From: Octopus vulgaris
Lineage: Eukaryota
DNA length: 64,000 bases
Assembly: GCA_951406725.2 (NCBI GenBank)
Contig: OX597814.1
Coordinates: 64,232,001 to 64,296,000, forward strand
Direction: 5' to 3'
The position numbers were made by a program, and so were the translations under genes. The notes under the pieces are model-generated. The model searched no databases. It was not told the origin of the DNA and was given only the letters and a program-made list of their open reading frames with translations. Below, piece after piece: positions 2,936-27,235 of the stretch (positions are counted from its first letter, which is position 1; every line of letters starts with the position of its first letter).

Positions 2936-3062
2936 GAAGGATTTCCGGAGTAGCACTGCTACACCGCCACCCGCTCCCGATGGACAACAAGACGAGAATA
3001 CCTCGTAGTCCTTGAAAATTTACATTATTTACATTCGACAGATATACCCTCCAGCCTTCTCC

Positions 3063-3588: not shown

Positions 3589-3620
<32 letters not shown>

Positions 3621-4097
3621 CTAGCATTAAAGACCCGTCGTTGCCGAGTCATAGTGCTAGTGCATGTATATATGTGTATATATATGTGTACATATTACAT
3701 GTACATCTATATATATACATCTACACATAAAATTCAAAATATAAAGTTATATCTTAATATCGCTAGTGATAACAATACTCAAAATATATAACAGACTGGA
3801 ATTGTTAGCCCGTCTCTTGTAATTTCGATCAATTGTATCTTGTTCTCCCTCTTGTATAGAAGTGTGGCTACAATCCAGCCTACCTCTACTTTCATTTTAA
3901 ATTTTTTTCCGGGACGTCCTTCGTCCCAGATATAATGGTAAAAATAAAATATTTCCACTTTGCAAGTTCGAGTCGAATACTCCCTTGCACGCTCCGTTGA
4001 CTCGAACCTTGCTTCTGTTGTGGCGAATTTGCCGCCTCTGATTAGATAACTTTCATAGTCGCACCAAGACACTTTTCGAAGGTGCTTTCCTCCATGT

Positions 4098-5574
4098 TGT
4101 TTTATTATTACCCACAAGGGGCGAACATAGATGGGACAATACAATCTGATGATGGGGTCAGACAAACGAATGGGTTTTTACAATAAATCGGATTTAAAAA
4201 TTTTCATGAATTACAATAAATGGTCAGAAATCGAAAGATGGGACAGACCGGAAGACATTACGGGTGGAGTGGGTGCGGGTTTAGCTCGGACCCCACGAGC
4301 CCCGCCTCCCCACTGATACTTTTGGTTGCGCTTGGTATTACATTTATGTTGTATCTTTCACTCGCAACTTTCGTGCTACATCCTTCCATCGTTCTTCATA
4401 CACTCTCCTAGTCAGGCATATTCTCTCCAGCCCTATCTTCCTTTTCAGGTGAAAGATGAAATACTTCATCAAACCAGGGCCGGAGATGAACTTGCCTGAC
4501 TGTAAACCTTTCATTCTCGTCTTCCATATCACCTCTTTCGCAATTGCTACTACAACGAGAAAACGAAACTTACCTTCATTCACGAGGAAATCCGGTGGGT
4601 CAATTTTTGTAATCGACTCAGTCGACAGCTGTACTCTTCGTGTACCTGACAACAGCTGTTCGGCATAAACCCACACCTCAGACACGTCCGAACAATGAAC
4701 AATAGCGTGCGGGACGATTTCCCTATCCCGCCCGCATCTTGGACATATCGGACTGTCTTGGCCACCGTGCCTTGCGAGTTTATCCCGAACAGGTAGAGCT
4801 CCTCTGTAGCATTGCCATGCCAGAGACTTCTGGAAGTTGTCCAGTGTCCTCGGCTCGAACGTACGTCGGAACAGACTGGCCAGCTGATTATCGTCGAGAC
4901 CTAGGGTTTCCCCCAAGGTATCTTCACATTCCGCCTCTACCAACCCTCTATAGAAGAATGTGGTGGAACCCCCACCGCAGGCGTTGCCCGAGCGACGGAA
5001 TAGCAGGAGAGCTTGCGACACTCCGTGTACCAAGTACCAAGTTTCGATCTACGATTCAGCCAGGTTTCCCATCCACCGAAACTAGTGAACTTGGGAAACA
5101 TCAGTTTTGCTAGCGAAGACCACACCCGTTCACCATCCAGGTAGAGCCACAGATGTCTTAACCTCAGCGCATGTCTGCGCATCATCAGCCAAGGCATCCC
5201 TAGCCCACCCTTTAACGGTTGTTGACAGCAAGTAGAGCGTTTCACAAGTGGTTTCCCGCCCTTCCACAAGAAGTAGAAGAGCTGTCTTTCCAACTTGATC
5301 AACCACGAATCAGGGCAAGGAACGACGGAAAGGCGGTAGGTGATAACCGATGCGATAAACACATTGGCCACCTCCGCCCTCCCTTTCAGGGATAGCCACC
5401 GCCAAGACCAGGTCTTGGCTACTGCAGCCACCTTGCTCGTTACCTCGCCCCAATTCTTCTCTATTTGGAGGTCTGGACCGAACCAGACCCCTAGCAGTTT
5501 AATCGGACCCTCCGTCCAACGTCCCACGACGCTGTCAGGAGGCATCGACTTGCCTCTCCAGGTGCCGAGTTGCA
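4098..5574 (-). mobile_element. 5'-truncated Tx1/L1-clade LINE copy (end of RT, zinc finger, 3' UTR)
   Basis: Near-identical to 5591-7074. Flanked by exact 16-bp direct repeat GTGCTTTCCTCCATGT (4082-4097 and 5575-5590). ORF pieces 5574-5010 and 5033-4344 include CPRCGRDREIVPHAIVHC. Confidence 0.93.
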
Positions 5575-5835
5575 GTGCTTTCCTCCATGTTGTTTTATTA
5601 TTACCCACAAGGGGCGAACACAGATGGGACAATACAATCTGATGATGGGGTTAGACAAACGAATGGGTTTTTACAATAAATCGGGTTTAAAAATTTTCAT
5701 GAATAACAATAAATGGACAGAAATCGAGTGATAGGACAGACCGGAAGACATTACGGGTGGAGTGGGTGCGGGTTTAGCTCGGACCCCACGAGCCCCGCCT
5801 CCCACTGATACTTTTGGTTGCACTTGATTACATTT

Positions 5836-8800
5836 ATGTTGTAACTTTCATTCGCAACTTCCGTGCTACATCCTTCCATCGTTCTTCATACGCTCCTAGT
5901 CAGGCATATTCTCTCCAGCCCTATCTTCCTTTTCAGGTGAAAGATGAAATAATTCATCAAACCAGGGCCGGAGATGAACTTGCCCGACTGTAAACCTTTC
6001 ATTCTCGTCTTCCATATCACCTCTTTCGCGATTGCTACTACAACGAGAAAACGAAACTTACCTTCATTCACGAGGAAATCCGGTGGGTCAATTTTTGTAA
6101 TCGACTCAGTCGACAGCTGTACTCTTCGTGTACCTTGACAACAGCTGTTCGGCATAAACCCACACCTCAGACACGTCCGGACAATGAACAATCGCGTGCG
6201 GGACGGTTTCCCTATCCCGCCCGCATCTTGGACATATCGGACTGTCTTGGCCACCGTGCCTTGCGAGTTTATCCCGAACAGGTAGAGCTCCTCTGTAGCA
6301 TTGCCATGCCAGAGACTTCTGGAAGTTGTCCAGTGTCCTTGGCTCGAACGTACGTCGGAACAGACTGGCCAGCTGATTATCGTCGAGACCCAGGGTTTCC
6401 CCCAAGGTATCTTCACATTCCGCCTCTACCAACCCTCTATAGAAGAAAGTGGTGGAACCCCCACCGCAGGCGTTGCCCGAGCGACGGAATAGCAGGAGAG
6501 CCTTGCGACACTCCGTGTACCAAGTACCAAGTTTCGATCTACGATTCAGCCAGGTTTCCCATCCACCGAAACTAGTGAACTTGGGAAACATCAGTTTTGC
6601 TAGCGAAGACCACACCCGTTCACCATCCAGGTAGAGCCACAGATGTCTTAACCTCAGCGCATGTCTGCGCATCATCAGCCAAGGCATCCCTAGCCCACCC
6701 TTTAACGGTTGTTGACAGCAAGTAGAGCGTTTCACAAGTGGTTTCCCGCCCTTCCACAAGAAGTAGAAGAGCTGTCTTTCCAACTTGATCAACCACGAAT
6801 CAGGGCAAGGAACGACGGAAAGGCGGTAGGTGATAACCGATGCGATAAACACATTGGCCACCTCCGCCCTCCCTTTCAGGGATAGCCACCGCCAAGACCA
6901 GGTCTTGGCTACTGCAGCCACCTTGCTCGTTACCTCGCCCCAATTCTTCTCTATTTGGAGGTCTGGACCGAACCAGACCCCTAGCAGTTTAATCGGACCC
7001 TCCGTCCAACGTCCCACGACGCTGTCAGGAGGCATCGACTTGCCTCTCCAGGTGCCGAGTTGCAAGCCGACTGACTTTTCGCGATTAACTTTTGCTCCTG
7101 TCACCGTCTCGTACACCTCTATGGCCTTGCCTACTTTACATAGGTGGTCCATTTCGGTTACGATGATGGTGATGTCATCCGCGTACGCTGACACTGATTT
7201 TCCATTACCTGGCTGTCTCGGGATGCCGCTCAGTTTTCGCAGTAATGGCTCAAGAGCCATCACGTACAAAAGCGGGGAGAGCGGACACCCTTGACGAACC
7301 GAGCGTTTGATTTTGAACGGCTTCGACAAGAAGCCGTTCACCCGAACTACCGAGTCGATGTTATCATAAATTTCGATAATCCACCTGAGGAATCCAAGGC
7401 TCAGCCCGAACTGTGCCAGGGCAGATACCAGGTAACGATGGTCGACCCTATCAAAAGCTTTAGATTGGTCTAAATGGACCAGTGCCCCACCCTTGCCAGA
7501 ATCACTATTAAACCCCTCTATAGTGTACCGCATTAGATGGAGATTATCCTGAATGGATCTGCCCGGAACGGCACATGTCTGTGCCCCTCCGATCAGACCA
7601 TCCGCGACACGCGCCAATCTTTTCGATAACACTTTGGCCAAAATCTTCAACTCTGTGTTTAGCAGAGTGATGGGCCTGAAATTATCAATGCACTCCCCCT
7701 TGCTCGGGTCCTTTCTGACGAGAGTCACTACTCCCCGGCGCACAGATCTGGGTATAAGCCCGTTCTGCTGCCAGTTCGCGTAGACCTCCGCCAGTAGGTG
7801 CCCGAACAAGTCTGGCATACTCTTATATAACTCATAGGGTAGACCATCCAAACCCGGCGCCTTGCCCGCACCGCAGTCCGCCATTGCCTCAACCACCTCC
7901 TCAGGCGTGATTGGCCCTTCACAGCCCTCCGCATCTCGCCCCGATAAGCGCGGCAGACCGTCGAGTAGGTCCGTAAAGGCCCTCCTCCTATCCAGTCCGC
8001 CGCACTCACCGAAAAGCTGAGCGAAGTGCTCCTGAAAGGCCTCACACATCTCCTCGGGTTCGTTTATCAACTCACCTTGTTGGTTCGTCAAAGATCGAAT
8101 CGTGGCATCGTTACCATGCTGAGCTTCCACCACTCGGGCCCATCTCACGGCGTTGATTCCTTCACATCCCATATGACGGATTCTAGCCCTGACAATGCAG
8201 CCCATGTGTTTGGCCTCGAGGTGCTGGTTTAACACCAGTCTCTTGGCCGCCACCTGAGCCGCAGAGCCAGTTTTCATGGCTTCCTCTAATTCCTTAACTA
8301 GAGTAGTTTCCCTTCTAGCCTCTCTAGCCACTACTCCTATGCTATATCTAATAGACTCAAACTTGATGGCTCGTTTGAGGGCGTACCACCATTTGTTATT
8401 AATGATGGTACCAGATAGTGCCCTCTGAATTATATTCCTAATCCGGTCTTTGTACTCCTTAATCGCCAAAAGGGACGTATTAAGTTTCCAGTAACCGGAT
8501 CCTCTATTTTTAACCTTATCTATATCAAGCTTACAAGTGACCATTTTATGATCACTGTAGCTGATCGGGTAAAACTGTGGACACTTAGCTATTTTACTGT
8601 CTACTTTTCTAATTAGTATTCTATCTAGATACGACCTGGAAGATCCGTCGCTGTTTGACCATGTCCACAATGGAGCGTTCGGAAATTCCAGCCTATAAGG
8701 ATCTGCTAGCTCAAAGCGGCTTAGCAGTTCCATGAAGCCACTGTTGCCTTTTCTATCTGGACACGAGCCAACATAATCTACATCCGCTTTGCAAATTGTG

Positions 8801-9228
8801 TTAAAGTCTCCTAGCACCACTAATGAATGCGAAGTACCAAGAAAGTTTTCTAGTTCACGAAAATAATCACTTTGCCCTGTATGGTTGGGTGCGTAAATTG
8901 CAACCAGTCTGATAACTTTACCATTACTGAACGTCAAATCCATGACGACCAGCCTACCTTCTGGATCTGCAAAAATTAACTTTTTCTCAGAAACCCGGTT
9001 TCTTTTTAATAGGACCAACACCCCACTCCCGCCTGTAGGACTGCCAGGAGAGAAAAAACTCTCGTAGCCGTCAAACAGCGGGAGTAGACCTCTTGGCCCC
9101 TCTAACCGGGTTTCTGTAGCAACAATAACATCTAAATTACGCGACCTGATATCATGCAGGAAGCGACCTTGCTTCCAGCCTGCTCCCAGGCCGCGCACAT
9201 TTAAACAACCAACATAAATGTAATCCAT
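5836..9228 (-). CDS. ORF2: APE endonuclease, reverse transcriptase, C-terminal CCHC finger (~1130 aa; frameshifts near 6136 and 5890)
   Basis: EN motifs LNVRGL, ATETRL, IYAPN, GDFN, LDRI, SDH. RT motifs KAPGLDG, FRPITLLN, DQSKAFDRV, RQGCPLSPLLY, YADD, KLLGV. Zinc finger CPRC..HAIVHC. 1040 aa open (9228-6106); true C-terminus inferred from the adjacent truncated copy. Confidence 0.95.
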
Positions 9229-9237
9229 TACTTACCT

Positions 9238-10615
9238 TTATATCAGTGGTTCGGTTTTTTCTTCTTCTTCCTTCTCTTTTTCTGGGCCTCGTGGGGGAGT
9301 CTGACGTAGGCCCTCGAATATATGTGGAGATGTTACATCCAACCTAAGTGGGCCTACGTCATGGAAGAATTCTGACTTTATCCGCCCGTAATCCTTCCGG
9401 TCTATTTTGTAAATTACAAAGTCATTTTTTTTCTCTACTTTCTTCACTTTGGCCATGGCTGCCAACACGTTTCCGAGTCTGCTATTTGATGCTTTTACGG
9501 CCATATATGAGTTCATTGACTCTTTTTTCTTTTTTAAAATTACTCTGGGAGGGGTGGTTTCCGTTTTTCTTTTTTTTTTTCCGATAATTTTTGCCCACCC
9601 CTCCTCATTTATCTTTTCCTCGCTCTTTTTTTCTCCGCCGCTGGTTCTGCTGTTACCATCACCTCCACACCTTCAGTCTTCCCTTCTGGGCCGTCTGACG
9701 CTGCTTCTGGTGACACATTGTCTTCTTTTTCTTTTGGCTTAGGTGCTTCCTGCGGTTTGGGTTGGGGCTGGCATTCCGCCCTTACATGCCCCTTCTTACC
9801 GCAGCCGAAGCACCTCGGCTTTCTGCCCTCTACGAAGACTGTGACTCTTTCATCTTCGCTTATCCTTAGAGTCTCTGGGATCTCTTCCAGGGTTTGTACT
9901 TCTGCTTGTATGGCTATTATTATCTTTTGCCCTTTCCAGAATTCTTCTTCTTCTACGGTGGCCTGGAGGATGTTTATTTTTTCCTCCAGGCCTACCATAA
10001 CTGCTGCCACTAGGACTTCGGCATCCGCTTCTGGCGGGATGTTGTTCATTGTGATCTTGGAAGTTCTCTTGCCTTTATACAGGGGTAGGAGAACAATATC
10101 CTCCGCTTTTATGGGTTCCATGGATAGCTTCTTCGCTACCTCCTCTGACGTGAATCTCACCTCCACTGTGCCGTATTTCTTCCCTCGATTGATATACGTA
10201 ATTTTATCCATTATTGGCTTTAAGCAGTTTTCAATCTTTTTCTCCTCTATTTTTTGGATTGCTCTGTTTGTTATACTGAATGTCTTATAGATTATTCTCC
10301 TATTCGAAATATCCTCCTGTATTTGGGCGTTTGAAGCCACGGTTACTTCCGTGCCCTCTTTTGACACACAGTCCGCATGTTTTCCCAGGTTGTCCACGTT
10401 AATTTTTTTATTTTCTTCCCAGCCACTTCAGCGAATTTTTTTGCTGGAGTTGATGCTGGTACTGGTTTTACCATTTTCTTGGGCGATGCCGCCTCTTTTT
10501 TCTTCGGCGACAGCGCCTCTTTTTTTCTTGGCGACAACGCCTCTTTTTTACTTGGCGACAACGCCGGGTATTCATCCTCGCTCGTCACGGGCGAATAAGT
10601 GATGGGGGACTCCAT
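9238..10615 (-). CDS. ORF1 (Tx1-type gag-like RNA-binding protein, CCHC knuckle), ~460 aa, broken by two 1-nt losses in A7 runs (~10405 and ~9628)
   Basis: Joins ORFs 10624-10343, 10397-9609 and a frame open from ~9670 to 9238. CFGCGKKGHVRAEC knuckle; RRM-like segment GTVEVRF; N-terminal SPxK repeats. Confidence 0.85.
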
Positions 10616-11088
10616 CTTGAACAAATGGCTTTAACAAGCCTTTGGTAATCTAAATTAATTGTAGTTTTCCCCCACTGAGGGGGGAACACCAACGCGAAGT
10701 CTTCGCGCGAAGGTTGACTTCGTCAGTTAGACAACAATGGACAAAAAAAAAAGGTAGACCAACAGTATATAATAACAGAGATAAGTAGTATGAGAGCAAA
10801 AATATATATCAACTTACTAATAACGCAAAAAATTGATTTCCTCCATGTGATTTTATTATTACCCACAAGGGGCGAACATAGAGGGGACAATACAATCGGG
10901 GAACTTAAAATAAGAAAGCGAATGACAAGAAAAGGAAAAAATAAAAGTAAAAATGACATATGAAAGAATATTTACAATGAGATGTAAATGCCCACTCGAT
11001 CCCCGGAATCGAGAGGTTACATTTTCGTCACATATATTTCACAATATTTTTCTTTTTTCTCTTCTTTCTTCTCTCTCTTCTCACAGTT

Positions 11089-12493
11089 CTAAACATATTC
11101 CATGATAGTTTTCAATTCTCTAAAGTCTATCACTGAGCCCTCAGGCAGCCGCTCTCTCACTCGAACACTCGTGTAAAATGTTACACTCTCACCGGCAGCT
11201 CTGAGGAACTCAGCGACTCTTTCTTCGGGGATTAGAGCAGTCTCCTGCCACTGATCGGTCATCCTGTTGACCCACACATGTCCCTCCGTATTACTTGTCA
11301 AATCCTTCATTTCAGGGCAGAAATGGAAGGTTACTAACTTGTAGAAGCAGTAATCTTGTTTCCGTCCTACGTTTTCCTTCATTTTTCTTTTCGGGCTTAT
11401 TTCTTCCTTGTTCTCCTCTCTTTGTTTCTCTCTTTCTCTCTTTTTGCCTTCTTTTCTTTCCTCTTCCTTCTCTTGTCTTTTTGGTTCTTTGTCTGTTCTC
11501 TCTTTCTCTCGTGTTTTATGTTCCTTTTCTTTTTCTTTTGTGTGCCGTCTTTTCTTTTCGTTTGATTCTGATCTCTCTCTTGTTTTTTTCCTGTTGTTTC
11601 TTTTTCCTTTTTTTTTTCCTGACTCTGTTTTGGTTCTATTTCTTTCTTTTCTTTTATTTCTTTTTCCTTCATTGACTTATTATTTCCTTTCTCTTGTTGT
11701 TTTGTTTCCTTTTCTATGTTTTCTTTTTCATTTACCGTGTTCTTCTTTTCTTCGAGTTCCTGCTCGCACTCCGCTACGAATTCGTATAACGGGCACTCTT
11801 TTTTAATGTGCCCCCTTGTCCCGCACAAGTAGCAGTTTGGCTTTCTTCCCTCTACAATTACACTGAGGGTTTTCTCATCTTCAATTTCTATTCTGTAGGG
11901 GAACCTTTCAATGTCCTCTTTTGTGGCCATCAAACACAGTTCTACCCCATATCCTCTCCAGTTTATCACGTTGGACTCCTTAAAGGATTCCACCTCCACT
12001 TCCTCTTCTGCTGCTCCTAGAATAGCTGTTGCCAGCCATTCTGTTTTTACTTCTGGGGGTATATTCGGGATTTTAACCCGGACCCCTCTTCTTCCCTTGT
12101 ATGAGGGCCACATTGTAAATGTTTCCGCTCTTAGTACAGTGGTAGCCAGTGAGGCTGCAATTTCTTCCGTTGCACATCTCACCTCCACCGTACCAAATTT
12201 CTTTCCTCTACTCACGTAGGTCGATTTCCCCATTATGTCTCCCAGACATTTTTCGATTTCTGCTATCTCCACTCTTGCCAGTTTCTTTGTATTTTTGTCT
12301 TGGGTTCTATATGTTACAGTCTTGTTTTCTTTGTCCTCTTTTGCTTTCGCGGGGGGATTAGCTTCACGCTATCACCCTCCCTTTTGAATAGCTTTTCATA
12401 TTCTTTGAGTTTACTCTTCTCAAAGAAAACATCCTTCACGATTATCGACGAATCATTATTTTTCTTTCCCGTGACCCCCGCGTAAGTCGCCAT
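11089..12493 (-). CDS. ORF1-like protein, unit 1 (two frameshifts)
   Basis: MATYAG start at 12493; C6 run at 12351-12356 and an A-run indel near 11535 break the frame; CYLCGTRGHIKKEC knuckle. Confidence 0.8.
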
Positions 12494-12869
12494 GACTAGA
12501 GGGTCAATTCACCTTCTTCGGAAGGTTTCCACACGTGGAGGCAAACGCCTCGCGCGATAATAATCAATTTACACAACAAAATTTCACTGTCTAGTCACAG
12601 ATAACAACACGCATAGATTTCCGACACGTGATTTTATTATTACCCACGAGGGGCGAACATAGAGGGGACAGTACAATCGGGGAACTTAAAATAAGAAAGC
12701 AAATGACAAGAAAAGGAAAAAATAAAAGTAAAAAATGACATATGAAAGAATATTTACAATGAGATGCAAATGCCCACTCGATCCCCGGAATCGAGAGGTT
12801 ACATTTTCGTCACATATAGTTCACAATATTTTCTTTTTTCTCTTCTTTCTTCTTTCTCTTCTCACAGTT

Positions 12870-14272
12870 CTAAACATATTCCATGATAGTTTTCAATTCT
12901 CTAAAGTCTATCACTGAGCCCTCAGGCAGCCGCTCTCTCACTCGAACACTCGTGTAAAATGTTACACTCTCACCGGCAGCTCTGAGGAACTCAGCGACTC
13001 TTTCTTCGGGGATTAGAGCAGTCTCCTGCCACTGATCGGTCATCCTGTCGACCCATATATGTCCCTCCGTACTACTTGTCAATTCTTTCATTTCAGGGCA
13101 GAAATGGAAGGTTACTAACTTGTAGAAGCCGTGATCTTGTTTCCGTCCTACGTTTTCCCTCGTTTTTCTTTTCGGGCTTATTTCTTCCTTGTTCTCCTCT
13201 CTTTGTTTCTCTCTTTCTCTCTTTTTGCCTTCTTTCCTTTCCTCTTCCTTCTCTTGTCTTTTTGGTTCTTTGTCTGTTCTCTCTTTCTCTCGTGTTTTAT
13301 GTTCCTTTTCTTTTTCTTTTTGTGTGCCGTCTTTTCTTTTCGTTTGGTTCTGATCTCTCTCTTGTTTTTTTCCTGTTGTTTCTTTTTCCTTTTTCTTTTC
13401 CTGACTCTGTTTTGGTTCTATTTCTTTCTTTTCTTTTATTTCTTTTTCCTTCATTGACTTATTATTTCCTTTCTCTTGTTGTTTTGTTTCCTTTTCTATG
13501 TTTTCTTTTTCATTTACCGTATTCTTCTTTTCGAGCTCCTGCTCGCACTCCGCTACGAATTCGTATAACGGGCACTCTTTTTTAATGTGCCCCCTTGTCC
13601 CGCACAAGTAGCAGTTTGGCTTTCTTCCCTCTACAATTACACTGAGGGTTTTCTCATCTTCAATTTCTATTCTGTAGGGGAACCTTTCAATGTCCTCTTT
13701 TGTGGCCATCAAACACAGTTCCACCCCATATCCTCTCCAGTTTATCACGTTGGACTCCTTAAAGGATTCCACCTCCACTTCCTCTTCTGCTGCTCCTAGA
13801 ATAGCTGTTGCCAGCCATTCTGTTTTTACTTCTGGGGGTATATTCGGGATTTTAACCCGGACCCCTCTTCTTCCCTTGTATGAGGGCCACATTATAAATG
13901 TTTCCGCTCTTAGTACAGTGGTAGCCAGTGAGGCTGCAATTTCTTCCGTTGCATATCTCACCTCCACCGTACCAAATTTCTTGCCTCTACTCACGTAGGT
14001 CGATTTCCCCATTATGTCTCCCAGACATTTTTCGATTTCTGCTATCTCCACTCTTGCCAGTTTCTTTGTATTTTTGTCCTGGGTTCTATATGTTACAGTC
14101 TTGTTTTCTTTGTCCTCTTTTGCTTTCGCGGGGGGATTAGCTTCACGCTATCACCCTCCCTTTTGAATAGCTTTTCATATTCTTTGAGTTTACTTTTCTC
14201 AAAGAAAACATCCTTCACGATTATCGACGAATCATTATTTTTCTTTCCCGTGACCCCCGCGTAAGTCGCCAT
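12870..14272 (-). CDS. ORF1-like protein, unit 2 (one -1 shift at C6)
   Basis: 393-aa open segment plus upstream MATYAG segment; 1403 nt versus 1404 in intact unit 4. Confidence 0.85.
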
Positions 14273-14648
14273 GACTAGAGGGTCAATTCACCTTCTTCGG
14301 AAGGTTTCCACACGTGGAGGCAAACGCCTCGCGCGATAATAATCAATTTACACAACAAAATTTCACTGTCTAGTCACAAATAACAACACGCATAGATTTC
14401 CGACACGTGATTTTATTATTACCCACGAGGGGCGAACATAGAGGGGACAGTACAATCGGGGAACTTAAAATAAGAAAGCAAATGACAAGAAAAGGAAAAA
14501 ATAAAAGTAAAAAATGACATATGAAAGAATATTTACAATGAGATGCAAATGCCCACTCGATCCCCGGAATCGAGAGGTTACATTTTCGTCACATATAGTT
14601 CACAATATTTTCTTTTTTCTCTTCTTTCTTCTCTCTCTTCTCACAGTT

Positions 14649-16052
14649 CTAAACATATTCCATGATAGTTTTCAATTCTCTAAAGTCTATCACTGAGCCC
14701 TCAGGCAGCCGCTCTCTCACTCGAACACTCGTGTAAAATGTTACACTCTCACCGGCAGCTCTGAGGAACTCAGCGACTCTTTCTTCGGGGATTAGAGCAG
14801 TCTCCTGCCACTGATCGGTCATCCTGTCGACCCATATATGTCCCTCCGTACTACTTGTCAATTCTTTCATTTCAGGGCAGAAATGGAAGGTTACTAACTT
14901 GTAGAAGCCGTGATCTTGTTTCCGTCCTACGTTTTCCCTCGTTTTTCTTTTCGGGCTTATTTCTTCCTTGTTCTCCTCTCTTTGTTTCTCTCTTTCTCTC
15001 TTTTTGCCTTCTTTCCTTTCCTCTTCCTTCTCTTGTCTTTTTGGTTCTTTGTCTGTTCTATCTTTCTCTCGTGTTTTATGTTCCTTTTCTTTTTCTTTTT
15101 GTGTGCCGTCTTTTCTTTTCGTTTGGTTCTGATCTCTCTCTTGTTTTTTTCCTGTTGTTTCTTTTTCCTTTTTCTTTTCCTGACTCTGTTTTGGTTCTAT
15201 TTCTTTCTTTTCTTTTATTTCTTTTTCCTTCATTGACTTATTATTTCCTTTCTCTTGTTGTTTTGTTTCCTTTTCTATGTTTTCTTTTTCATTTACCGTA
15301 TTCTTCTTTTCGAGTTCCTGCTCGCACTCCGCTACGAATTCGTATAACGGGCACTCTTTTTTAATGTGCCCCCTTGTCCCGCACAAGTAGCAGTTTGGCT
15401 TTCTTCCCTCTACAATTACACTGAGGGTTTTCTCGTCTTCAATTTCTATTCTGTAGGGGAACCTTTCAATGTCCTCTTTTGTGGCCATCAAACACAGTTC
15501 CACCCCATATCCTCTCCAGTTTATCACGTTGGACTCCTTAAAGGATTCCACCTCCACTTCCTCTTCTGCTTGCTCCTAGAATAGCTGTTGCCAGCCATTC
15601 TGTTTTTACTTCTGGGGGTATATTCGGGATTTTAACCCGGACCCCTCTTCTTCCCTTGTATGAGGGCCACATTATAAATGTTTCCGCTCTTAGTACAGTG
15701 GTAGCCAGTGAGGCTGCAATTTCTTCCGTTGCATATCTCACCTCCACCGTACCAAATTTCTTGCCTCTACTCACGTAGGTCGATTTCCCCATTATGTCTC
15801 CCAGACATTTTTCGATTTCTGCTATCTCCACTCTTGCCAGTTTCTTTGTATTTTTGTCCTGGGTTCTATATGTTACAGTCTTGTTTTCTTTGTCCTCTTT
15901 TGCTTTCGCGGGGGGATTAGCTTCACGCTATCACCCTCCCTTTTGAATAGCTTTTCATATTCTTTGAGTTTACTTTTCTCAAAGAAAACATCCTTCACGA
16001 TTATCGACGAATCATTATTTTTCTTTCCCGTGACCCCCGCGTAAGTCGCCAT
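14649..16052 (-). CDS. ORF1-like protein, unit 3 (C6 shift plus 1-nt insertion near 15570)
   Basis: Split ORFs 15831-15538 and 15557-14649. Confidence 0.8.
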
Positions 16053-16428
16053 GACTAGAGGGTCAATTCACCTTCTTCGGAAGGTTTCCACACGTGGAGG
16101 CAAACGCCTCGCGCGATAATAATCAATTTACACAACAAAATTTCACTGTCTAGTCACAAATAACAACACGCATAGATTTCCGACACGTGATTTTATTATT
16201 ACCCACGAGGGGCGAACATAGAGGGGACAGTACAATCGGGGAACTTAAAATAAGAAAGCAAATGACAAGAAAAGGAAAAAATAAAAGTAAAAAATGACAT
16301 ATGAAAGAATATTTACAATGAGATGCAAATGCCCACTCGATCCCCGGAATCGAGAGGTTACATTTTCGTCACATATAGTTCACAATATTTTCTTTTTTCT
16401 CTTCTTTCTTCTCTCTCTTCTCACAGTT

Positions 16429-17832
16429 CTAAACATATTCCATGATAGTTTTCAATTCTCTAAAGTCTATCACTGAGCCCTCAGGCAGCCGCTCTCTCAC
16501 TCGAACACTCGTGTAAAATGTTACACTCTCACCGGCAGCTCTGAGGAACTCAGCGACTCTTTCTTCGGGGATTAGAGCAGTCTCCTGCCACTGATCGGTC
16601 ATCCTGTCGACCCATATATGTCCCTCCGTACTACTTGTCAATTCTTTCATTTCAGGGCAGAAATGGAAGGTTACTAACTTGTAGAAGCCGTGATCTTGTT
16701 TCCGTCCTACGTTTTCCCTCGTTTTTCTTTTCGGGCTTATTTCTTCCTTGTTCTCCTCTCTTTGTTTCTCTCTTTCTCTCTTTTTGCCTTCTTTCCTTTC
16801 CTCTTCCTTCTCTTGTCTTTTTGGTTCTTTGTCTGTTCTATCTTTCTCTCGTGTTTTATGTTCCTTTTCTTTTTCTTTTTGTGTGCCGTCTTTTCTTTTC
16901 GTTTGGTTCTGATCTCTCTCTTGTTTTTTTCCTGTTGTTTCTTTTTCCTTTTTCTTTTCCTGACTCTGTTTTGGTTCTATTTCTTTCTTTTCTTTTATTT
17001 CTTTTTCCTTCATTGACTTATTATTTCCTTTCTCTTGTTGTTTTGTTTCCTTTTCTATGTTTTCTTTTTCATTTACCGTATTCTTCTTTTCGAGTTCCTG
17101 CTCGCACTCCGCTACGAATTCGTATAACGGGCACTCTTTTTTAATGTGCCCCCTTGTCCCGCACAAGTAGCAGTTTGGCTTTCTTCCCTCTACAATTACA
17201 CTGAGGGTTTTCTCGTCTTCAATTTCTATTCTGTAGGGGAACCTTTCAATGTCCTCTTTTGTGGCCATCAAACACAGTTCTACCCCATATCCTCTCCAGT
17301 TTATCACGTTGGACTCCTTAAAGGATTCCACCTCCACTTCCTCTTCTGCTGCTCCTAGAATAGCTGTTGCCAGCCATTCTGTTTTTACTTCTGGGGGTAT
17401 ATTCGGGATTTTAACCCGGACCCCTCTTCTTCCCTTGTATGAGGGCCACATTATAAATGTTTCCGCTCTTAGTACAGTGGTAGCCAGTGAGGCTGCAATT
17501 TCTTCCGTTGCACATCTCACCTCCACCGTACCAAATTTCTTTCCTCTACTCACGTAGGTCGATTTCCCCATTATGTCTCCCAGACATTTTTCGATTTCTG
17601 CTATCTCCACTCTTGCCAGTTTCTTTGTATTTTTGTCTTGGGTTCTATATGTTACAGTCTTGTTTTCTTTGTCCTCTTTTGCTTTCGCGGGGGGGATTAG
17701 CTTCACGCTATCACCCTCCCTTTTGAATAGCTTTTCATATTCTTTGAGTTTACTTTTCTCAAAGAAAACATCCTTCACGATTATCGACGAATCATTATTT
17801 TTCTTTCCCGTGACCCCCGCGTAAGTCGCCAT
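16429..17832 (-). CDS. ORF1-like protein, unit 4, intact 467 aa (RRM-like region, CCHC knuckle, K/E-rich linker, C-terminal domain)
   Basis: Uninterrupted ATG to stop with C7 run. Homologous to the autonomous ORF1: STYVSRGKKFGTVEVR vs ITYINRGKKYGTVEVR; NIPPE in both; VEGRKPNCYLCGTRGH vs VEGRKPRCFGCGKKGH. Confidence 0.92.
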   Translation of the reverse strand: MATYAGVTGKKNNDSSIIVKDVFFEKSKLKEYEKLFKREGDSVKLIPPAKAKEDKENKTVTYRTQDKNTKKLARVEIAEIEKCLGDIMGKSTYVSRGKKFGTVEVRCATEEIAASLATTVLRAETFIMWPSYKGRRGVRVKIPNIPPEVKTEWLATAILGAAEEEVEVESFKESNVINWRGYGVELCLMATKEDIERFPYRIEIEDEKTLSVIVEGRKPNCYLCGTRGHIKKECPLYEFVAECEQELEKKNTVNEKENIEKETKQQEKGNNKSMKEKEIKEKKEIEPKQSQEKKKEKETTGKKQERDQNQTKRKDGTQKEKEKEHKTREKDRTDKEPKRQEKEEERKEGKKREREKQREENKEEISPKRKTRENVGRKQDHGFYKLVTFHFCPEMKELTSSTEGHIWVDRMTDQWQETALIPEERVAEFLRAAGESVTFYTSVRVRERLPEGSVIDFRELKTIMEYV

Positions 17833-18211
17833 GACTAGAGGGTCAATTCACCTTCTTCGGAAGGTTTCCACACGTGGAGGCAAACGCCTCGCGCGATAAT
17901 AATCACTTTACACAACAAAATTTCAACGTCTAATCACAGATAACAACACGCAAATTGATTTCCGACACGTGATTTTATTACTACCCACAAGGGGCGAACA
18001 TAGAGGGGACAATACAATCGAGGAACTTAAAATAAGAAAGCGAAATGACAAGAAAGGGAAAAAATAAAAGTAAAAAATGACATATGAAAGAATATTTACA
18101 ATGAGATGCAAATGCCCACTCGATCCCCGAAATCGAGAGGTTACATTTTCGTCACATATATTTCACAATAATTTTCTTTTTTCTCTTCTTTCTTCTCTCT
18201 CTCTCACAATT

Positions 18212-19614
18212 TTATACGTATTCCATAATACCTTTCAAGTCTCTAAAGTCAATCACTGAGCCCTCAGGCAGCCGCTCTTTCATTCGAACACCCGTGTAAA
18301 AAATTACACTCTCTCCGGCAGCTCTGAGGAACTCAGCGACTCTTTCTTCGGGGATCAGAGCAGTCTCCTGCCACTGATCAGTCATCCTGTCGACCCACAC
18401 ATGTCCCTCCGTACTACATGTCAATTCCTTCATTTCAGGGCAGAAATGGAAGGTTACTAACTTGTAGAAGCCGTGATCTTGTTTCCGTCCTACGTTTTCC
18501 CTCGTTTTTCTTTTCGGGCTTATTTCTTCCTTGTTCTCCTCTCTTTGTTTCTCTCTTTCTCTCTTTTTGCCTTCTTTTCTTTCCTCTTCCTTCTCTTGTC
18601 TTTTTGGTTCTTTGTCTGTTCTCTCTTTCTCTCGTGTTTTATGTTCCTTTTCTTTTTCTTTTTGTGTGCCGTCTTTTCTTTTCGTTTGGTTCTGATCTCT
18701 CTCTTGTTTTTTTCCTGTTGTTTCTTTTTCCTTTTTCTTTTCCTGACTCTGTTTTGGTTCTATTTCTTTCTTTTCTTTTATTTCTTTTTCCTTCATTGAC
18801 TTATTATTTCCTTTCTCTTGTTGTTTTGTTTCCTTTTCTATGTTTTCTTTTTCATTTACCGTATTCTTCTTTTCGAGCTCCTGCTCGCACTCCGCTACGA
18901 ATTCGTATAACGGGCACTCTTTTTTAATGTGCCCCCTTGTCCCGCACAAGTAGCAGTTTGGCTTTCTTCCCTCTACAATTACACTGAGGGTTTTCTCATC
19001 TTCAATTTCTATTCTGTAGGGGAACCTTTCAATGTCCTCTTTTGTGGCCATCAAACACAGTTCCACCCCATATCCTCTCCAGTTTATCACGTTGGACTCC
19101 TTAAAGGATTCCACCTCCACTTCCTCTTCTGCTGCTCCTAGAATAGCTGTTGCCAGCCATTCTGTTTTTACTTCTGGGGGTATATTCGGGATTTTAACCC
19201 GGACCCCTCTTCTTCCCTTGTATGAGGGCCACATTATAAATGTTTCCGCTCTTAGTACAGTGGTAGCCAGTGAGGCTGCAATTTCTTCCGTTGCATATCT
19301 CACCTCCACCGTACCAAATTTCTTGCCTCTACTCACGTAGGTCGATTTCCCCATTATGTCTCCCAGACATTTTTCGATTTCTGCTATCTCCACTCTTGCC
19401 AGTTTCTTTGTATTTTTTTCTTGGGTTCTATATGTTACAGTCTTGTTTTCTTTGTCCTCTTTTGCTTTCGCGGGGGGATTAGCTTCACGCTATCACCCTC
19501 CCTTTTGAATAGTTTTTCATATTCTTTGAGTTTACTCTTCTCAAAGAAAACCTCCTTCACGATTATTGCCGAATCATTATTTTTCTTTCCCGTGACCCCC
19601 GCGTAAGTCGCCAT
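18212..19614 (-). CDS. ORF1-like protein, unit 5 (C6 shift; mosaic of the two subtypes)
   Basis: 393-aa open segment; N-terminal part like unit 2, C-terminus LKGIMEYV like unit 6. Confidence 0.85.
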
Positions 19615-19991
19615 GACTAGAGGGTCAATTCACCTTCTTCGGAAGGTTTCCAAACGTGGAGGCAAACGCCTCGCGCGATATTAATCACTTTACACAACAA
19701 AATTTCAACGTCTAATCACAGATAACAACACGCATAGATTTCCGACACGTGATTTTATTACTACCCACAAGGGGCGAACATAGAGGGGACAATACAATCG
19801 GGGAACTTAAAATAAGAAAGCGAAATGACAAGAAAAGGAAAAAATAAAAATAAAAATGACAAATGAAAGAATATTTACAATGAGATGCAAATGCCCACTC
19901 GATCCCCGGAATCGAGAGGTTACATTTTCGTCACATATATTTCACAATAATTTTCTTTTTTCTCTTCTTTCTTCTCTCTCTTCTCACAATT

Positions 19992-21390
19992 TTATACGTA
20001 TTCCATAATACCTTTCAAGTCTCTAAAGTCAATCACTGAGCCCTCAGGCAGCCGCTCTTTCATTCGAACACCCGTGTAAAAAATTACACTCTCTCCAGCT
20101 GCTCTGAGGAACTCAGCGACTCTTTCTTCGGGGATCAGAGCAGTCTCCTGCCACTGATCAGTCATCCTGTTGACCCACACATGTCCCTCCGTACTACATG
20201 TCAATTCCTTCATTTCGGGGCTGAAATGGAAGGTTATTAACTTGTAGTAATCTTGTTTCCGTCCTACGTTTTCTCTCGTTTTTCTTTTCGGGCTTACTTC
20301 TTCCTTGTTCTCCTCTCTTTGTTTCTCTCTTTCTCTCTTTTTGCCTTCTTTTCTTTCTTCTTCCTTCTCTTGTCTTTTTGGTTCTTTGTCTGTTCTATCT
20401 TTCTCTCGTGTTTTATGTTCCTTTTCTTTTTCTTTTTGTGTACCGTCTTTTCTTTTCGTTTGGTTCTGATCTCTCTCTTGTTTTTTTCCTGTTGTTTCTT
20501 TTTCCTTTTTCTTTTCCTGACTCTGTTTTGGTTCTATTTCTTTCTTTTCTTTTATTTCTTTTTCCTTCGTTGACTTATTATTTCCTTTCTCTTGTTGTTT
20601 TGTCTCCTTTTCTATGTTTTCTTTTTCATTTACCGTATTCTTCTTTTCTTCAATTTCCTTCTCATACTCCGCTATGAATTCGTATAACGGGCACTCTTTT
20701 TTAATGTGCCCCCTTGTCCCGCACAAGTAGCAGTTTGGCTTTCTTCCCTCTACAATTACACTGAGGGTTTTCTCGTCTTCGATTTCTATTCTATAGGGGA
20801 ACCTTTCAATGTCCTCTTTTGTGGCCATCAAACACAGTTCTACCCCATATCCTCTCCAATTTACTGCATTGGACTCCTTAAAGGATTCCACCTCCACTTC
20901 CTCTTCTGCTGCTCCTAGAATAGCTGTTGCCAGCCATTCTGTTTTTACTTCTGGGGGTATATTCGGGATTTTAACCGGACCCCTCTTCTTCCCTTGTATG
21001 AGGGCCACATTATAAATGTTTCCGCTCTTAGAACAGTGGTAGCCAGTGAGGCTGCAATTTCTTCCGTTGCACATCTCACCTCCACCGTACCAAATTTTTT
21101 TCCTCTACTCACGTAGGTCGATTTATCCATTATGTCTCCCAGACATTTTTCGATCTCTGCTATCTCCACTCTTGCCAGTTTCTTTGTACTTTTGTCCTGG
21201 GTTCTATACGTTACAGTTTTGTTTTCTTTGTCCTCTTTTGCTTTCGCGGGGGGATTAGCTTCACGCTATCACCCTCCCTTTTGAATAGTTTTTCATATTC
21301 TTTGAGTTTACTCTTCTCAAAGAAAACATCCTTCACGATTATTGCCGAATCATTATTATTCTTTCCCGTGACCCCCGCGTAAGTCGCCAT
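19992..21390 (-). CDS. ORF1-like protein, unit 6 (C6 shift plus 1-nt deletion near 20975)
   Basis: Split ORFs 21169-20945 and 21074-19992. Confidence 0.8.
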
Positions 21391-21769
21391 GACTAGAGGG
21401 TCAATTCACCTTCTTCGGAAGGTTTCCAAACGTGGAGGCAAATGCCTCGCGCGATATTAATCACTTTACACAACAAAATTTCAACGTCTAATCACAGATA
21501 ACAACACGTATAGATTTCCGACACGTGATTTTATTACTACCCACAAGGGGCGAACATAGAGGGGACAATACAATCGGGGAACTTAAAATAAGAAAGCGAA
21601 ATGACAAGAAGGGAAAAAAATAAAAATAAAAATGACAAATGAAAGAATATTTACAATGAGATGCAAATGCCCACTCGATCCCCGGAATCGAGAGGTTACA
21701 TTTTCGTCACATATAGTTCACAATTTTTTTCCTCTTTTTCTCTTCTTTCTTCTCTCTCCTCTCACAATC

Positions 21770-23169
21770 TCACACGTATTCCATAATACTTTTCAAGTCT
21801 CTAAAGTCAATCACTGAGCCCTCAGGCAGCCGCTCTTTCACTCGAACACCCGTGTAAAAAATTACACTCTCTCCAGCTGCTCTGAGGAACTCAGCGACTC
21901 TTTCTTCGGGGATCAGAGCAGTCTCCTGCCACTGATCAGTCATCCTGTTGACCCACACATGTCCCTCCATACTACATGTCAATTCCTTCATTTCGGGGCT
22001 GAAATGGAAGGTTATTAACTTGTAGTAATCTTGTTTCCGTCCTACGTTTTCTCTCGTTTTTCTTTTCGGGCTTACTTCTTCCTTGTTCTCCTCTCTTTGT
22101 TTCTCTCTTTCTCTCTTTTTGCCTTCTTTTCTTTCTTCTTCCTTCTCTTGTCTTTTTGGTTCTTTGTCTGTTCTATCTTTCTCTCGTGTTTTATGTTCCT
22201 TTTCTTTTTCTTTTTGTGTGCCGTCTTTTCTTTTCGTTTGGTTCTGTTCTCTCTCTTGTTTTTTTCCTGTTGTTTCTTTTTCCTTTTTCTTTTCCTGACT
22301 CTGTTTTGGTTCTATTTCTTTCTTTTCTTTTATTTCTTTTTCCTTCGTTGACTTATTATTTCCTTTCTCTTGTTGTTTTGTCTCCTTTTCTATGTTTTCT
22401 TTTTCATTTACCGTATTCTTCTTTTCTTCATTTTCCTTCTCATACTCCGCCATGAATTCATATAACGGGCACTCTTTTTTAATGTGCCCCCTTGTCCCGC
22501 ACAAGTAGCAGTTTGGCTTTCTTCCCTCTACAATTACACTGAGGGTTTTCTCGTCTTCGATTTCTATTCTATAGGGGAACCTTTCAATGTCCTCTTTTGT
22601 GGCCATCAAACACAGTTCTACCCCATATCCTCTCCAATTTACTGCATTGGACTCCTTAAAGGATTCCACCTCCACTTCCTCTTCTGCTGCTCCTAGAATA
22701 GCTGTTGCCAGCCATTCTGTTTTTACTTCTGGGGGTATATTCGGGATTTTAACCCGGACCCCTCTTCTTCCCTTGTATGAGGGCCACATTATAAATGATT
22801 CCGCTCTTAGAACAGTGGTAGCCAGTGAGGCTGCAATTTCTTCCGTTGCACATCTCACCTCCACCGTACCAAATTTTTTTCCTCTACTCACGTAGGTCGA
22901 TTTATCCATTATGTCTCCCAGACATTTTTCGATCTCTGCTATCTCCACTCTTGCCAGTTTCTTTGTACTTTTGTCCTGGGTTCTATACGTTACAGTTTTG
23001 TTTTCCTTGTCCTCCTTTGCTTTCGCGGGGGGATTAGCTTCACGCTATCACCCTCCCTTTTGAATAGCTTTTCATATTCTTTGATTTTACTTTTCTCAAA
23101 GAAAACATCCTTCACGATTATTGCCGAATCATTATTATTCTTTCCCGTGACCCCCGCGTAAGTCGCCAT
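21770..23169 (-). CDS. ORF1-like protein, unit 7 (C6 shift)
   Basis: 392-aa open segment plus upstream MATYAG segment. Confidence 0.85.
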
Positions 23170-23548
23170 GACTAGAGGGTCAATTCACCTTCTTCTGAAG
23201 GTTTCCAAACGTGGAGGCAAACGCCTCGCGCGATATTAATCACTTTACACAACAAAATTTCACTGTCTAATCACAGATAACAACACGCATAGATTTCCGA
23301 CACGTGATTTTATTATTACCCACGAGGGGCGAACATAGAGGGGACAATACAATCGGGGAACTTAAAATAAGAAAGCAAATGACAAGAAAAGGAAAAAATA
23401 AAAGTAAAAAATGACATATGAAAGAATATTTACAATGAGATGCAAATGCCCACTCGATCCCCGGAATCGAGAGGTTACATTTTCGTCACATATAGTTCAC
23501 AATTTTTTTCTCTTTTTTCTCTTCTTTCTTCTCTCTCCTCTCACAATC

Positions 23549-24950
23549 TCACACGTATTCCATAATACTTTTCAAGTCTCTAAAGTCAATCACTGAGCCC
23601 TCAGGCAGCCGCTCTTTCACTCGAACACCCGTGTAAAAAATTACACTCTCTCCAGCTGCTCTGAGGAACTCAGCGACTCTTTCTTCGGGGATCAGAGCAG
23701 TCTCCTGCCACTGATCAGTCATCCTGTTGACCCACACATGTCCCTCCATACTACATGTCAATTCCTTCATTTCGGGGCTGAAATGGAAGGTTATTAACTT
23801 GTAGTAATCTTGTTTCCGTCCTACGTTTTCTCTCGTTTTTCTTTTCGGGCTTACTTCTTCCTTGTTCTCCTCTCTTTGTTTCTCTCTTTCTCTCTTTTTG
23901 CCTTCTTTTCTTTCTTCTTCCTTCTCTTGTCTTTTTGGTTCTTTGTCTGTTCTCTCTTTCTCTCGTGTTTTATGTTCCTTTTCTTTTTCTTTTTGTGTGC
24001 CGTCTTTTCTTTTCGTTTGGTTCTGTTCTCTCTCTTGTTTTTTTCCTGTTGTTTCTTTTTCCTTTTTCTTTTCCTGACTCTGTTTTGGTTCTATTTCTTT
24101 CTTTTCTTTTATTTCTTTTTCCTTCGTTGACTTATTATTTCCTTTCTCTTGTTGTTTTGTCTCCTTTTCTATGTTTTCTTTTTCATTTACCGTATTCTTC
24201 TTTTCTTCATTTTCCTTCTCATACTCCGCTATGAATTCATATAACGGGCACTCTTTTTTAATGTGCCCCCTTGTCCCGCACAAGTAGCAGTTTGGCTTTC
24301 TTCCCTCTACAATTACACTGAGGGTTTTCTCGTCTTCGATTTCTATTCTATAGGGGAACCTTTCAATGTCCTCTTTTGTGGCCATCAAACACAGTTCTAC
24401 CCCATATCCTCTCCAATTTACTGCGTTGGACTCCTTAAAGGATTCCACCTCCACTTCCTCTTCTGCTGCTCCTAGAATAGCTGTTGCCAGCCATTCTGTT
24501 TTTACTTCTGGGGGTATATTCGGGATTTTAACCCGGACCCCTCTTCTTCCCTTGTATGAGGGCCACATTATAAATGATTCCGCTCTTAGAACAGTGGTAG
24601 CCAGTGAGGCTGCAATTTCTTCCGTTGCACATCTCACCTCCACCGTACCAAATTTTTTTCCTCTACTCACGTAGGTCGATTTATCCATTATGTCTCCCAG
24701 ACATTTTTCGATCTCTGCTATCTCCACTCTTGCCAGTTTCTTTGTACTTTTGTCCTGGGTTCTATACGTTACAGTTTTGTTTTCCTTTGTCCTCCTTTGC
24801 TTTCGCGGGGGGGATTAGCTTCACGCTATCACCCTCCCTTTTGAATAGCTTTTCATATTCTTTGATTTTACTTTTCTCAAAGAAAACATCCTTCACGATT
24901 ATTGCCGAATCATTATTATTCTTTCCCGTGACCCCCGCGTAAGTCGCCAT
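23549..24950 (-). CDS. ORF1-like protein, unit 8 (C7 but 1-nt insertion near 24787)
   Basis: ORFs 24950-24762 and 24727-23549. Confidence 0.85.
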
Positions 24951-25818
24951 GACTAGAGGGTCAATTCACCTTCTTCTGAAGGTTTCCAAACGTGGAGGCA
25001 AACGCCTCGCGCGATATTAATCACTTTACACAACAAAATTTCACTGTCTAATCACAGATAACAACACGCATAGATTTCCGACACGTGTTCAAATCTTTTT
25101 TCTCTTCATTGTATACTTTATAGACAATAGGCTTTTCTTTAATTTAATTTTTTATTATCCATCTGGACTATTCCATTTCTGCACGCTAATTTTATTTTTA
25201 ATTTATTCTCATTCATGTGAAACCACTTATTCAAGTTCAAGTCATTGATTCAATTTTATACCAATTGCTATTTTTACTTTTGTTATGTTACGATTATATC
25301 ATACTTTAATTTGATTGTAATTATTACTTACTACATATAATTCAATTGTTATTATTATTTTTATTGTTAAAGTGAAAGTATCTGACATAAAATAGAGAAA
25401 TGTTTTTGTATCACTTTTAACACGTAATACTGATATAGTGGAGAAGATATGATATTGCTATGGGCTCGCTCTAGGCAAGAAGTTGAACTTTTTTTCCCAT
25501 GAAACTACATGGACCCTAAGTAAGGCATGTGTAAAATTTGAATGAAATTGGTTGAGTAGTTCTCAAGTTTTAGGGAAACACACAGACAGACAAACAGACA
25601 GACAGATAGGCAGACAGACACACATTCTCAGTTTTATATATATAAAGATATATATATATATATATAATAAAAATAAGCATCAATAATGTCTCCTCTTCTT
25701 GTTCCTTATTTTGATTATAATTATAATCACCCCACAGATTTTTATGGATAACACCATACAGAATTCTGGTGCATCTAAATTAAGTACCATATTCATTTGA
25801 ATCTAAATTTTTGCTGAA

Positions 25819-26656: not shown

Positions 26657-26699
<43 letters not shown>

Positions 26700-26701
<2 letters not shown>

Positions 26702-27222: not shown

Positions 27223-27235
27223 TTTATTATTATTG

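What the first reader, a model, noticed from the sequence alone, without database searches (positions are those of the whole stretch)
3621..25648. The entire 21-kb retroelement stack is nested inside a ~1-kb non-autonomous Helitron
Seen: a Helitron-type 3' end (hairpin plus CTAG|T) lies ~480 bp left of the stack and a 5' end (A|TC, GTCT repeats) ~560 bp right, on the same strand. Known: Xenopus Tx1L/Tx2L insert specifically into the DNA transposons Tx1D/Tx2D. Inference: a Tx1 family using a multicopy Helitron as its safe-harbour target. With both termini present, the composite could in principle be moved or amplified by rolling-circle transposition.
Basis: partly seen in the sequence, partly recalled or inferred. 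Interest (0 to 1): 0.72.

Follow-up and report, generated by a model that had tools for sequence, protein, structure and literature searches.

The report
Retrotransposon stack inside an ORF1-carrying Helitron
In a likely octopus genome, ten retrotransposon copies (21 kb) sit at one exact base of a 1-kb rolling-circle-type repeat whose empty form shows in four sequencing runs, and that landing spot lies inside a broken piece of the retrotransposons' own kind of RNA-binding gene, which the small repeat likely picked up and spread.

Summary
Both Helitron-type ends are present on the minus strand (A|TC at 25648; hairpin plus CTAG|T at 3621). Contigs from 4 of 4 public runs cross directly from 4097 to 25087, so the empty 1039-bp element exists. 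It looks abundant: summed contig depth is 15-74 times that of the inserted elements (not a copy number). The stack holds 8 ORF1-only units, one near-complete Tx1-type LINE and one 5'-truncated copy with an exact 16-bp target duplication. New here: the landing site is not plain Helitron DNA. It lies in a decayed Tx1-type ORF1 fragment (about 340-430 bp) that spans the cut and is high-copy across the family. So a small LINE-Helitron composite likely was amplified earlier. No sign that the 22-kb composite moved. Genome-wide enrichment could not be counted (no assembly held). Tx1 targeting of DNA transposons, with tandem non-autonomous partners, is known (Tx1L, Tx1-Mar/SINEU); I found no paper naming a Helitron target. 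This scan already noted such trains in Helitrons on at least five other pieces of this genome (unchecked AI notes). New variant; interest 0.5.

The parts
25087..25648 (-). 5' half of a non-autonomous Helitron-type (HLE1-like) element: A|TC terminus at 25648, CTGT/GTCT microsatellite 25578-25624, and a ~140-bp segment (25436-25577) that is tandemly repeated in other copies
   Evidence: (depth, table 5c joints 25577 to 25436)
25087..25161 (-). upstream part of the decayed Tx1-type ORF1 fragment (may extend to about 25240); TATAAA starts at 25122, 36 nt before the cut
   Evidence: P0204 residues 35-52 match 25140-25087, 12 of 18 identical, E 5e-6 on the right half alone; for the upstream extension
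10849..25086 (-). eight head-to-tail ORF1-only units of 1776-1782 bp, with 3' ends at 23306, 21527, 19751, 17971, 16189, 14409, 12630 and 10849. Each starts with the same 14-nt leader. Two subtypes (units 1-3 and 5-8); unit 4 is a mosaic. Only unit 5 has a full-length ORF1 (467 aa) in this assembly
5591..10848 (-). near-complete Tx1/L1-type LINE: 14-nt leader one base off the Helitron site; ORF1 (two RRM-like domains plus Cys motif; frameshift near the start) about 9609-10615; ORF2 (APE endonuclease, RT, zf-RVT) 6106-9231, with a frameshift near the C-terminus
5575..5590 (-). 16-bp target-site duplication, identical to 4082-4097
   Evidence: TSD check true; next bases differ
4098..5574 (-). 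5'-truncated copy of the LINE's last 1.48 kb, 98% identical to the longer copy
3809..4097 (-). downstream part of the decayed ORF1 fragment (rest of the first RRM-like domain and start of the second), with three frameshifts; the target site is at 4082-4097
3621..3808 (-). 3' part of the Helitron: TA-rich tract and a 40-nt terminal hairpin (3621-3660) ending CTAG|T
3584..3620 (.). TA microsatellite flanking the 3' end (continued on the other side at 25649-25666): the host site of the Helitron

Best explanation
A 1039-bp Helitron-type repeat that carries a decayed Tx1-type ORF1 fragment is split at one base inside that fragment by ten retrotransposon copies, which were likely inserted there by a site-preferring Tx1-type LINE and its ORF1-only partners. 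Likely order (inferred): (1) an ancestral Helitron acquired a piece of an older LINE ORF1 and was copied to high number; (2) this copy landed in a TA run; (3) the LINE endonuclease cut at 25087|4097 and reverse transcription began there. The truncated copy's 16-bp duplication shows this step directly. (4) Full-length elements carry a 14-nt leader like the downstream half of the site (1 of 14 and 4 of 14 differences), so each insertion would rebuild a site and let more copies dock. The ORF1-only units share 44 of the last 46 tail bases with the LINE and would borrow its ORF2. (5) Local duplication or recombination likely added to or homogenised the ORF1-only run. That the site falls in the ORF1 relic may be chance: the relic is a third to two fifths of the element and is frameshifted at the cut itself. 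The 22-kb composite keeps both ends, but nothing shows it has moved.
For: Empty site in 4 of 4 runs. Depth steps at both junctions: 19-34x on the left, 15-74x on the right. ORF1 relic: frameshift-aware score 120 against a maximum of 40 in 100 shuffles and 29 on the opposite strand. P0204 matches 47 of 84 columns across the site, scoring 186 joined, 139 left only and 62 right only. 69 of 150 ORF1 homologues hit the empty element at E<1e-3 in a 1-kb database. Profile HMM: 41.9 bits on the left half, against at most 5.0 bits for 600 shuffled frames. All 10 tails are followed by the 14-nt site or a leader variant, and the outermost junction joins Helitron DNA straight to the leader. No other match within 3 mismatches occurs in the window. 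Shared tail. Two different families and a truncated copy use the same base.
Against: Enrichment is not counted: one locus only, and the loose-end tables are cut (843 and 960 rows hidden). Neighbouring ORF1-only units are more alike than distant ones (98.2% at one-unit offset, falling to about 94.6%). Unit 4 is a mosaic and 6 of 8 units share one missing base, so many units may be duplicates rather than separate insertions. Short contigs cannot prove that both Helitron ends and the relic lie on one molecule in most copies. No autonomous Helitron with these ends was found; the nearby helicase-bearing fragment has the same 40-nt end architecture but another sequence. No close donor of the relic was found. 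Tx1-clade membership was not tested with named references.
Confidence: 0.68

Rival explanations
1. Few true insertions; the ORF1-only run grew mainly by tandem duplication or unequal crossing-over, like a satellite, so there is little real targeting.
For: Identity falls with distance; units 6 and 7 differ at 4 sites; unit 4 is a mosaic; private changes per unit are only 1-11; 6 of 8 units share a frameshift.
Against: At least three separate events (LINE, truncated copy, first ORF1-only unit) use the same base. The truncated copy has an exact 16-bp duplication. Two subtypes differ at 80 columns, and unit 5 has a different 5' start.
Confidence: 0.13
2. The elements aim at a transcription start site, and this Helitron happens to offer one; the leader is read-in target RNA and the Helitron supplies the promoter. 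(Lead from note e1-8671901; compatible with the best explanation as an add-on.)
For: TATAAA starts 36 nt before the cut (window position 25122). All elements face the same way as the Helitron, and each carries a target-like leader.
Against: 36 nt is somewhat far for a TATA box (about 30, recalled), and many family copies seem to have about 3 more bases there (loose ends). TATAAA is common in such AT-rich DNA. No transcript ends were measured.
Confidence: 0.1
3. The true target is the ORF1 gene of a rival Tx1 lineage, and the Helitron only multiplied a decoy of it.
For: The cut lies inside an ORF1-derived stretch. The elements' own ORF1s differ at the matching place at 6 and 10 of 17 bases, which would spare them.
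Against: The read-supported site carries a one-base frameshift at the cut, so an intact ORF1 would not hold this exact sequence. The relic covers a third to two fifths of the element, so overlap by chance is easy. No closer donor was found.
Confidence: 0.05
4. The loaded Helitron itself was moved or amplified by rolling-circle transposition.
For: Both ends are kept. A junction joining the LINE tail to position 3801-3803 has 12-19 times a single contig's depth in 3 of 4 runs, which could be an amplified deleted composite. In Helraiser the left end is essential and the right end is not strictly needed (PMC5876387, passages).
Against: This copy's own letters are rare (0-2.5% of depth at 7 chosen sites, 0.000% in two site-run pairs). 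Its hairpin is weaker than the neighbour's (-6.7 against -12.8). The 3801 joint has only 23-24 letters on its short side and may be a second insertion site.
Confidence: 0.04

Closest known systems
Tx1-Mar LINEs and SINEU in crocodilian Mariner-N4_AMi (Kojima 2015, PMC4494074; passages and sections 14 and 16 read)
   Same: Tx1-type LINE plus non-autonomous partner inserting at set places in an abundant non-autonomous DNA transposon; tandem copies sandwiching a target duplication; hitch-hiking was tested there with truncated copies.
   Different: Here the host is Helitron-type, not Mariner. The partners are ORF1-only elements, not SINEs. The train is ten copies long. The site lies in LINE ORF1-derived DNA carried by the host.
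Xenopus Tx1 in Tx1D, a non-autonomous piggyBac; Tx1-9_AMi in Harbinger; Tx1-8_Crp and Tx1-4_AMi in LTR elements (as described in PMC4494074, passages; primary papers not read)
   Same: A LINE uses another transposon as its target.
   Different: 'Helitron' occurs 0 times in that paper; no ORF1-only trains in the passages read.
HAL1 (half-L1), ORF1-only non-autonomous L1 derivatives (PMC5753468, passages)
   Same: Encodes ORF1 only; depends on an autonomous partner.
   Different: In the passage read, HAL1 is not described as site-specific or tandem. The head-to-tail habit recalls Drosophila HeT-A (recalled; also named in earlier notes).
Non-autonomous HLE1 Helitrons such as lepidopteran Hel-2 (PMC4344730 and PMC11417382, passages)
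   Same: 5' TC, 3' hairpin and CTAG, A|T site, CTGT microsatellite near the 5' end, acquired internal sequence.
   Different: The acquired sequence is a LINE ORF1 piece that now holds a LINE landing site; the autonomous partner is unidentified.

Membership tests
HLE1 (canonical Helitron), non-autonomous | 5' end starts with TC | tested here: met
   A|TC at 25648; four listed contigs stop aligning at 25641-25644
HLE1 (canonical Helitron), non-autonomous | 3' hairpin followed by CTRR | tested here: met
   imperfect stem; not checked on reads
HLE1 (canonical Helitron), non-autonomous | insertion between A and T without target duplication | tested here: met
   TA runs on both sides, A before TC and T after CTAG; a short duplication cannot be excluded inside a TA run
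HLE1 (canonical Helitron), non-autonomous | multicopy and contiguous when empty | tested here: met
   local adjacency only, no full-length copy seen
HLE1 (canonical Helitron), non-autonomous | ends shared with an autonomous RepHel element | tested here: inconclusive
   the PIF1-bearing fragment ending at 46680 has the same 40-nt end architecture but another sequence; genome not held
Tx1 clade LINE | ORF2 with APE endonuclease, RT and C-terminal zinc motif; ORF1 with RRM-like domains and CCHC knuckle | tested here: met
   Pfam (zf-CCHC hit on the ORF1-only proteins, no Pfam hit on the LINE's ORF1); best PDB match LINE-1 ORF2p, E 5e-65, against R2 at 4e-26; ORF1 model matches tandem-RRM proteins. 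This shows L1/Tx1 group, not Tx1 alone
Tx1 clade LINE | RT phylogeny groups with named Tx1 families | not tested
Tx1 clade LINE | target-specific by Kojima's rule (target in more than 20% of flanks) | not testable with these tools
   no assembly; loose-end tables cut
HAL1-like ORF1-only element | ORF1 only, no ORF2 | tested here: met
   1 of 8 units has a full-length ORF1
HAL1-like ORF1-only element | 3' tail shared with an autonomous partner | tested here: met
   44 of the last 46 tail bases compared are identical
HAL1-like ORF1-only element | independent retrotransposition of each copy | tested here: inconclusive
   leader at every junction, but also a similarity gradient and a mosaic unit

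The most novel reading that the evidence does not exclude
A closed loop between two transposon classes: a Helitron captured a piece of a Tx1-type LINE's own ORF1 and multiplied it by rolling-circle copying. The LINE lineage and its ORF1-only partners then adopted that fossil as a renewable landing pad, and perhaps as a promoter (a TATA-like box formed from old Tyr-Lys codons, 36 nt before the cut). Loaded Helitrons sometimes carry LINE cargo onward.
Probability: 0.15. Interest if true: 0.78.

Novelty: new variant of a known kind. Interest (0 to 1): 0.5.

Why it matters
It adds a rolling-circle element to the short list of transposons used as LINE targets and gives the cut to the base, with a 16-bp duplication and two empty-site alleles, so an endonuclease assay can be designed at once. 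The host repeat is itself a fossil LINE-Helitron hybrid, which bears on how new target sites arise and on Helitron capture of retroelement DNA. It also matters for annotation: an abundant octopus repeat is part Helitron and part LINE, and could be filed as either or as an unclassified SINE. The ingredients (Tx1 in DNA transposons, tandem partners, ORF1-only elements, Helitron capture) are each known, which caps the surprise.

Tried and rejected
My first reconstruction of the empty element was one base too long and made the ORF1 relic look in frame across the cut. Re-reading the loose ends corrected it (note 73); one search repeats the tests on the read-supported join and shows a frameshift at the cut, so I dropped the 'exact register' argument. 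The HMM register control did not discriminate: joins shifted by 2 bases scored about as well overall. Rfam: 0 families at gathering score, so no tRNA or snRNA target. Direct protein search with the relic: 0 of 18 candidates passed. Exact empty-site pattern in metagenome contigs: 0 matches. No RNA holder listed. Look-ups of earlier notes by sequence, near and relatives were blank. The sigma-70 scan does not apply to an animal and was ignored. RNA-editing marks claimed in other notes: private A>G changes were 3 of 33 private changes over the 8 units, so not seen here. A wide structural search did not run; the Foldseek result was enough. Literature: 9 searches gave no paper naming a Helitron as a Tx1 target or a Helitron-captured LINE ORF1. 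The O. vulgaris repeat paper (PMC13282606, passages) has 0 hits for 'target', 'nested' and 'ORF1'. Subscription journals, Repbase Reports and all supplements were not seen and may hold such an entry.
Full report
Source. ORF1 of the repeated units matches proteins labelled Octopus vulgaris at 79-100% identity and O. bimaculoides at 53-58%, so the window is likely from O. vulgaris or a close relative. No assembly is held. Evidence from other copies therefore comes from contigs of public runs.

Anatomy. Self-comparison and ORF lists show ten elements on the minus strand between 4098 and 25086. From the 5' side: eight ORF1-only units of about 1.78 kb; a 5.26-kb LINE with ORF1 and an ORF2 bearing APE, RT and zf-RVT domains (best solved relative LINE-1 ORF2p); and a 1.48-kb 5'-truncated copy of the LINE's end, 98% identical to it. 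Both LINE ORFs carry a frameshift in this assembly, and only unit 5 has a full ORF1. A model of the LINE's ORF1 (mean pLDDT 86) matches tandem-RRM proteins (low TM-scores, 0.22-0.31). LINE and ORF1-only units share 44 of the last 46 tail bases compared.

The Helitron ends. CTAG ends at 3621, before T and a TA run, and the last 40 nt form a hairpin. It is the only 1 of 400 CTRR|T motifs with both a good fold and a TA run behind it. The only other locus with the same 40-nt CTAGC...GCTAG|T layout ends at 46680, 100 nt behind a PIF1 helicase frame; this supports reading the layout as a Helitron end. A|TC lies at 25648, followed by a CTGT-type microsatellite. These are the HLE1 features given in PMC11417382 (passages), and they match lepidopteran Hel-2 (PMC4344730, passages).

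The halves are one element. On 3725-4700, contigs of all four runs laid (the 4 best holders of 24 listed; 3 studies) leave the window at 4094 or 4097 and go on with the sequence found at 25087 onward: 44, 48, 41 and 26 contigs. On 24930-25650, run X4 shows the reverse with 7 contigs; for the other runs the shown rows are taken up almost wholly by microsatellite ends, and 960 rows are hidden. The join is 4097 to 25087, giving 1039 bp, in two alleles. Summed depth rises 19-34-fold from LINE tail to left half and 15-74-fold from ORF1-only unit to right half (medians). The tool warns this is no copy number; I take from it only that the host repeat is far more abundant than its passengers.

The landing site is LINE-derived. 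The DNA either side of the cut is homologous to this group's ORF1. On the read-supported join, the LINE's own ORF1 residues 40-157 align to 25143-3818 (41 of 113 identical, four frameshifts, score 120; 100 shuffles: mean 29, maximum 40). Homologue P0204 aligns at 47 of 84, and both halves contribute: 62 right, 139 left, 186 joined. 69 of 150 ORF1 homologues hit the empty element. The self-comparison showed no DNA match between relic and live ORF1s, so the donor was an older, separate family. Depth is high across the relic on both sides, so it belongs to the family, not to this copy alone. Many copies have a G-run near 3892 that this copy lacks, where ORF1 has a Pro-Pro motif (tables 4 and 7). 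I first joined the halves one base too long and thought the frame ran through. The corrected join puts a frameshift at the cut itself (note 73), which argues that the site took its present form inside the Helitron.

Mechanism. Shown: every tail is followed by a 14-nt site or leader; the LINE's leader differs from the Helitron site at 1 of 14 bases and the ORF1-only leader at 4 of 14; the outermost unit joins Helitron DNA directly to its leader; the truncated copy sits between exact 16-bp repeats. Inferred from standard target-primed reverse transcription: the endonuclease nicks at 25087|4097; leaders are part of the element RNA and rebuild a site at each 5' junction; ORF1-only RNAs are copied in trans through the shared tail. 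Unit 8, next to the LINE, has the most private changes (11, against 1-5), weakly favouring growth away from the LINE. Against pure one-by-one growth: identity falls with distance, unit 4 is a mosaic of the two subtypes, and six units share one missing base. Duplication or recombination likely contributed.

Did the composite move? Nothing shows it. At 7 sites that I picked from the difference tables because the family majority differs from this copy, all other letters together make 0-2.5% of depth in 28 site-run pairs. One lead remains: a joint from the LINE tail to 3801-3803 in 3 of 4 runs, at about 12-19 times the depth of a long single contig. It is either a second insertion site or a deleted, amplified composite.

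Comparison. Tx1-clade targeting of DNA transposons, with tandem non-autonomous partners, is described for Tx1 in Tx1D and for Tx1-Mar and SINEU in Mariner-N4_AMi (PMC4494074; passages and sections 14 and 16). ORF1-only HAL1 is known (PMC5753468, passages), and so is safe-haven targeting as a general idea (PMC6719617, passages). Nine searches found no Helitron target and no Helitron-captured LINE ORF1. The library lacks most subscription papers and Repbase Reports, and I read no supplements. Earlier notes of this scan describe such trains inside Helitrons on five other pieces of the genome. They are unchecked, I saw only a few lines of each, and I could not confirm they concern the same Helitron family. 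None of those lines mentions the ORF1 relic.

Verdict. Observation confirmed; interpretation partly supported. Best reading (0.68): a site-preferring Tx1-type LINE and ORF1-only partners stacking in an abundant non-autonomous Helitron whose core is a captured ORF1 relic. New variant of a known kind; interest 0.5.

Noticed in passing
window 44229-46680 (+): Decayed Helitron RepHel fragment: PIF1 and Pif1_2B Pfam hits at 45285-46580, and a strong 40-nt terminal hairpin ending CTAG|T at 46680 (-12.8 kcal/mol). Same end layout as the host element but a different sequence.
   Followed up: partly
window 3801-3803 joined to 4097-4099 (table 5): Contigs in 3 of 4 runs join the LINE tail directly to the far end of the ORF1 relic, skipping 295 bp, at about 12-19 times single-contig depth: a second target site or an amplified deletion form.
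   Followed up: partly
window 25436-25577 (table 5c): A ~140-bp segment of the Helitron's 5' part is tandemly repeated in other copies (joints 25577 back to 25435-25439 in at least three runs).
   Followed up: no
window 2003-3019 (-) and 29076-30687 (+): Two older, decayed ORF2 fragments related to the LINE (38-56% amino-acid identity), not flanked by this Helitron.
   Followed up: partly
window 26690-28227 and 61278-63052: Two inverted copies of another ~1.5-kb repeat (78-87% identical) with AAT microsatellites; not identified.
   Followed up: no
window 38206-38636, 50391-50603, 58100-58693: Several copies of a 100-220-bp dispersed repeat (71-87% identical); not identified.
   Followed up: no
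window 10474-10565 (-): A 24-bp tandem repeat (3.8 copies) in the N-terminal part of the LINE's ORF1, encoding Ser-Pro-Lys-rich repeats.
   Followed up: no
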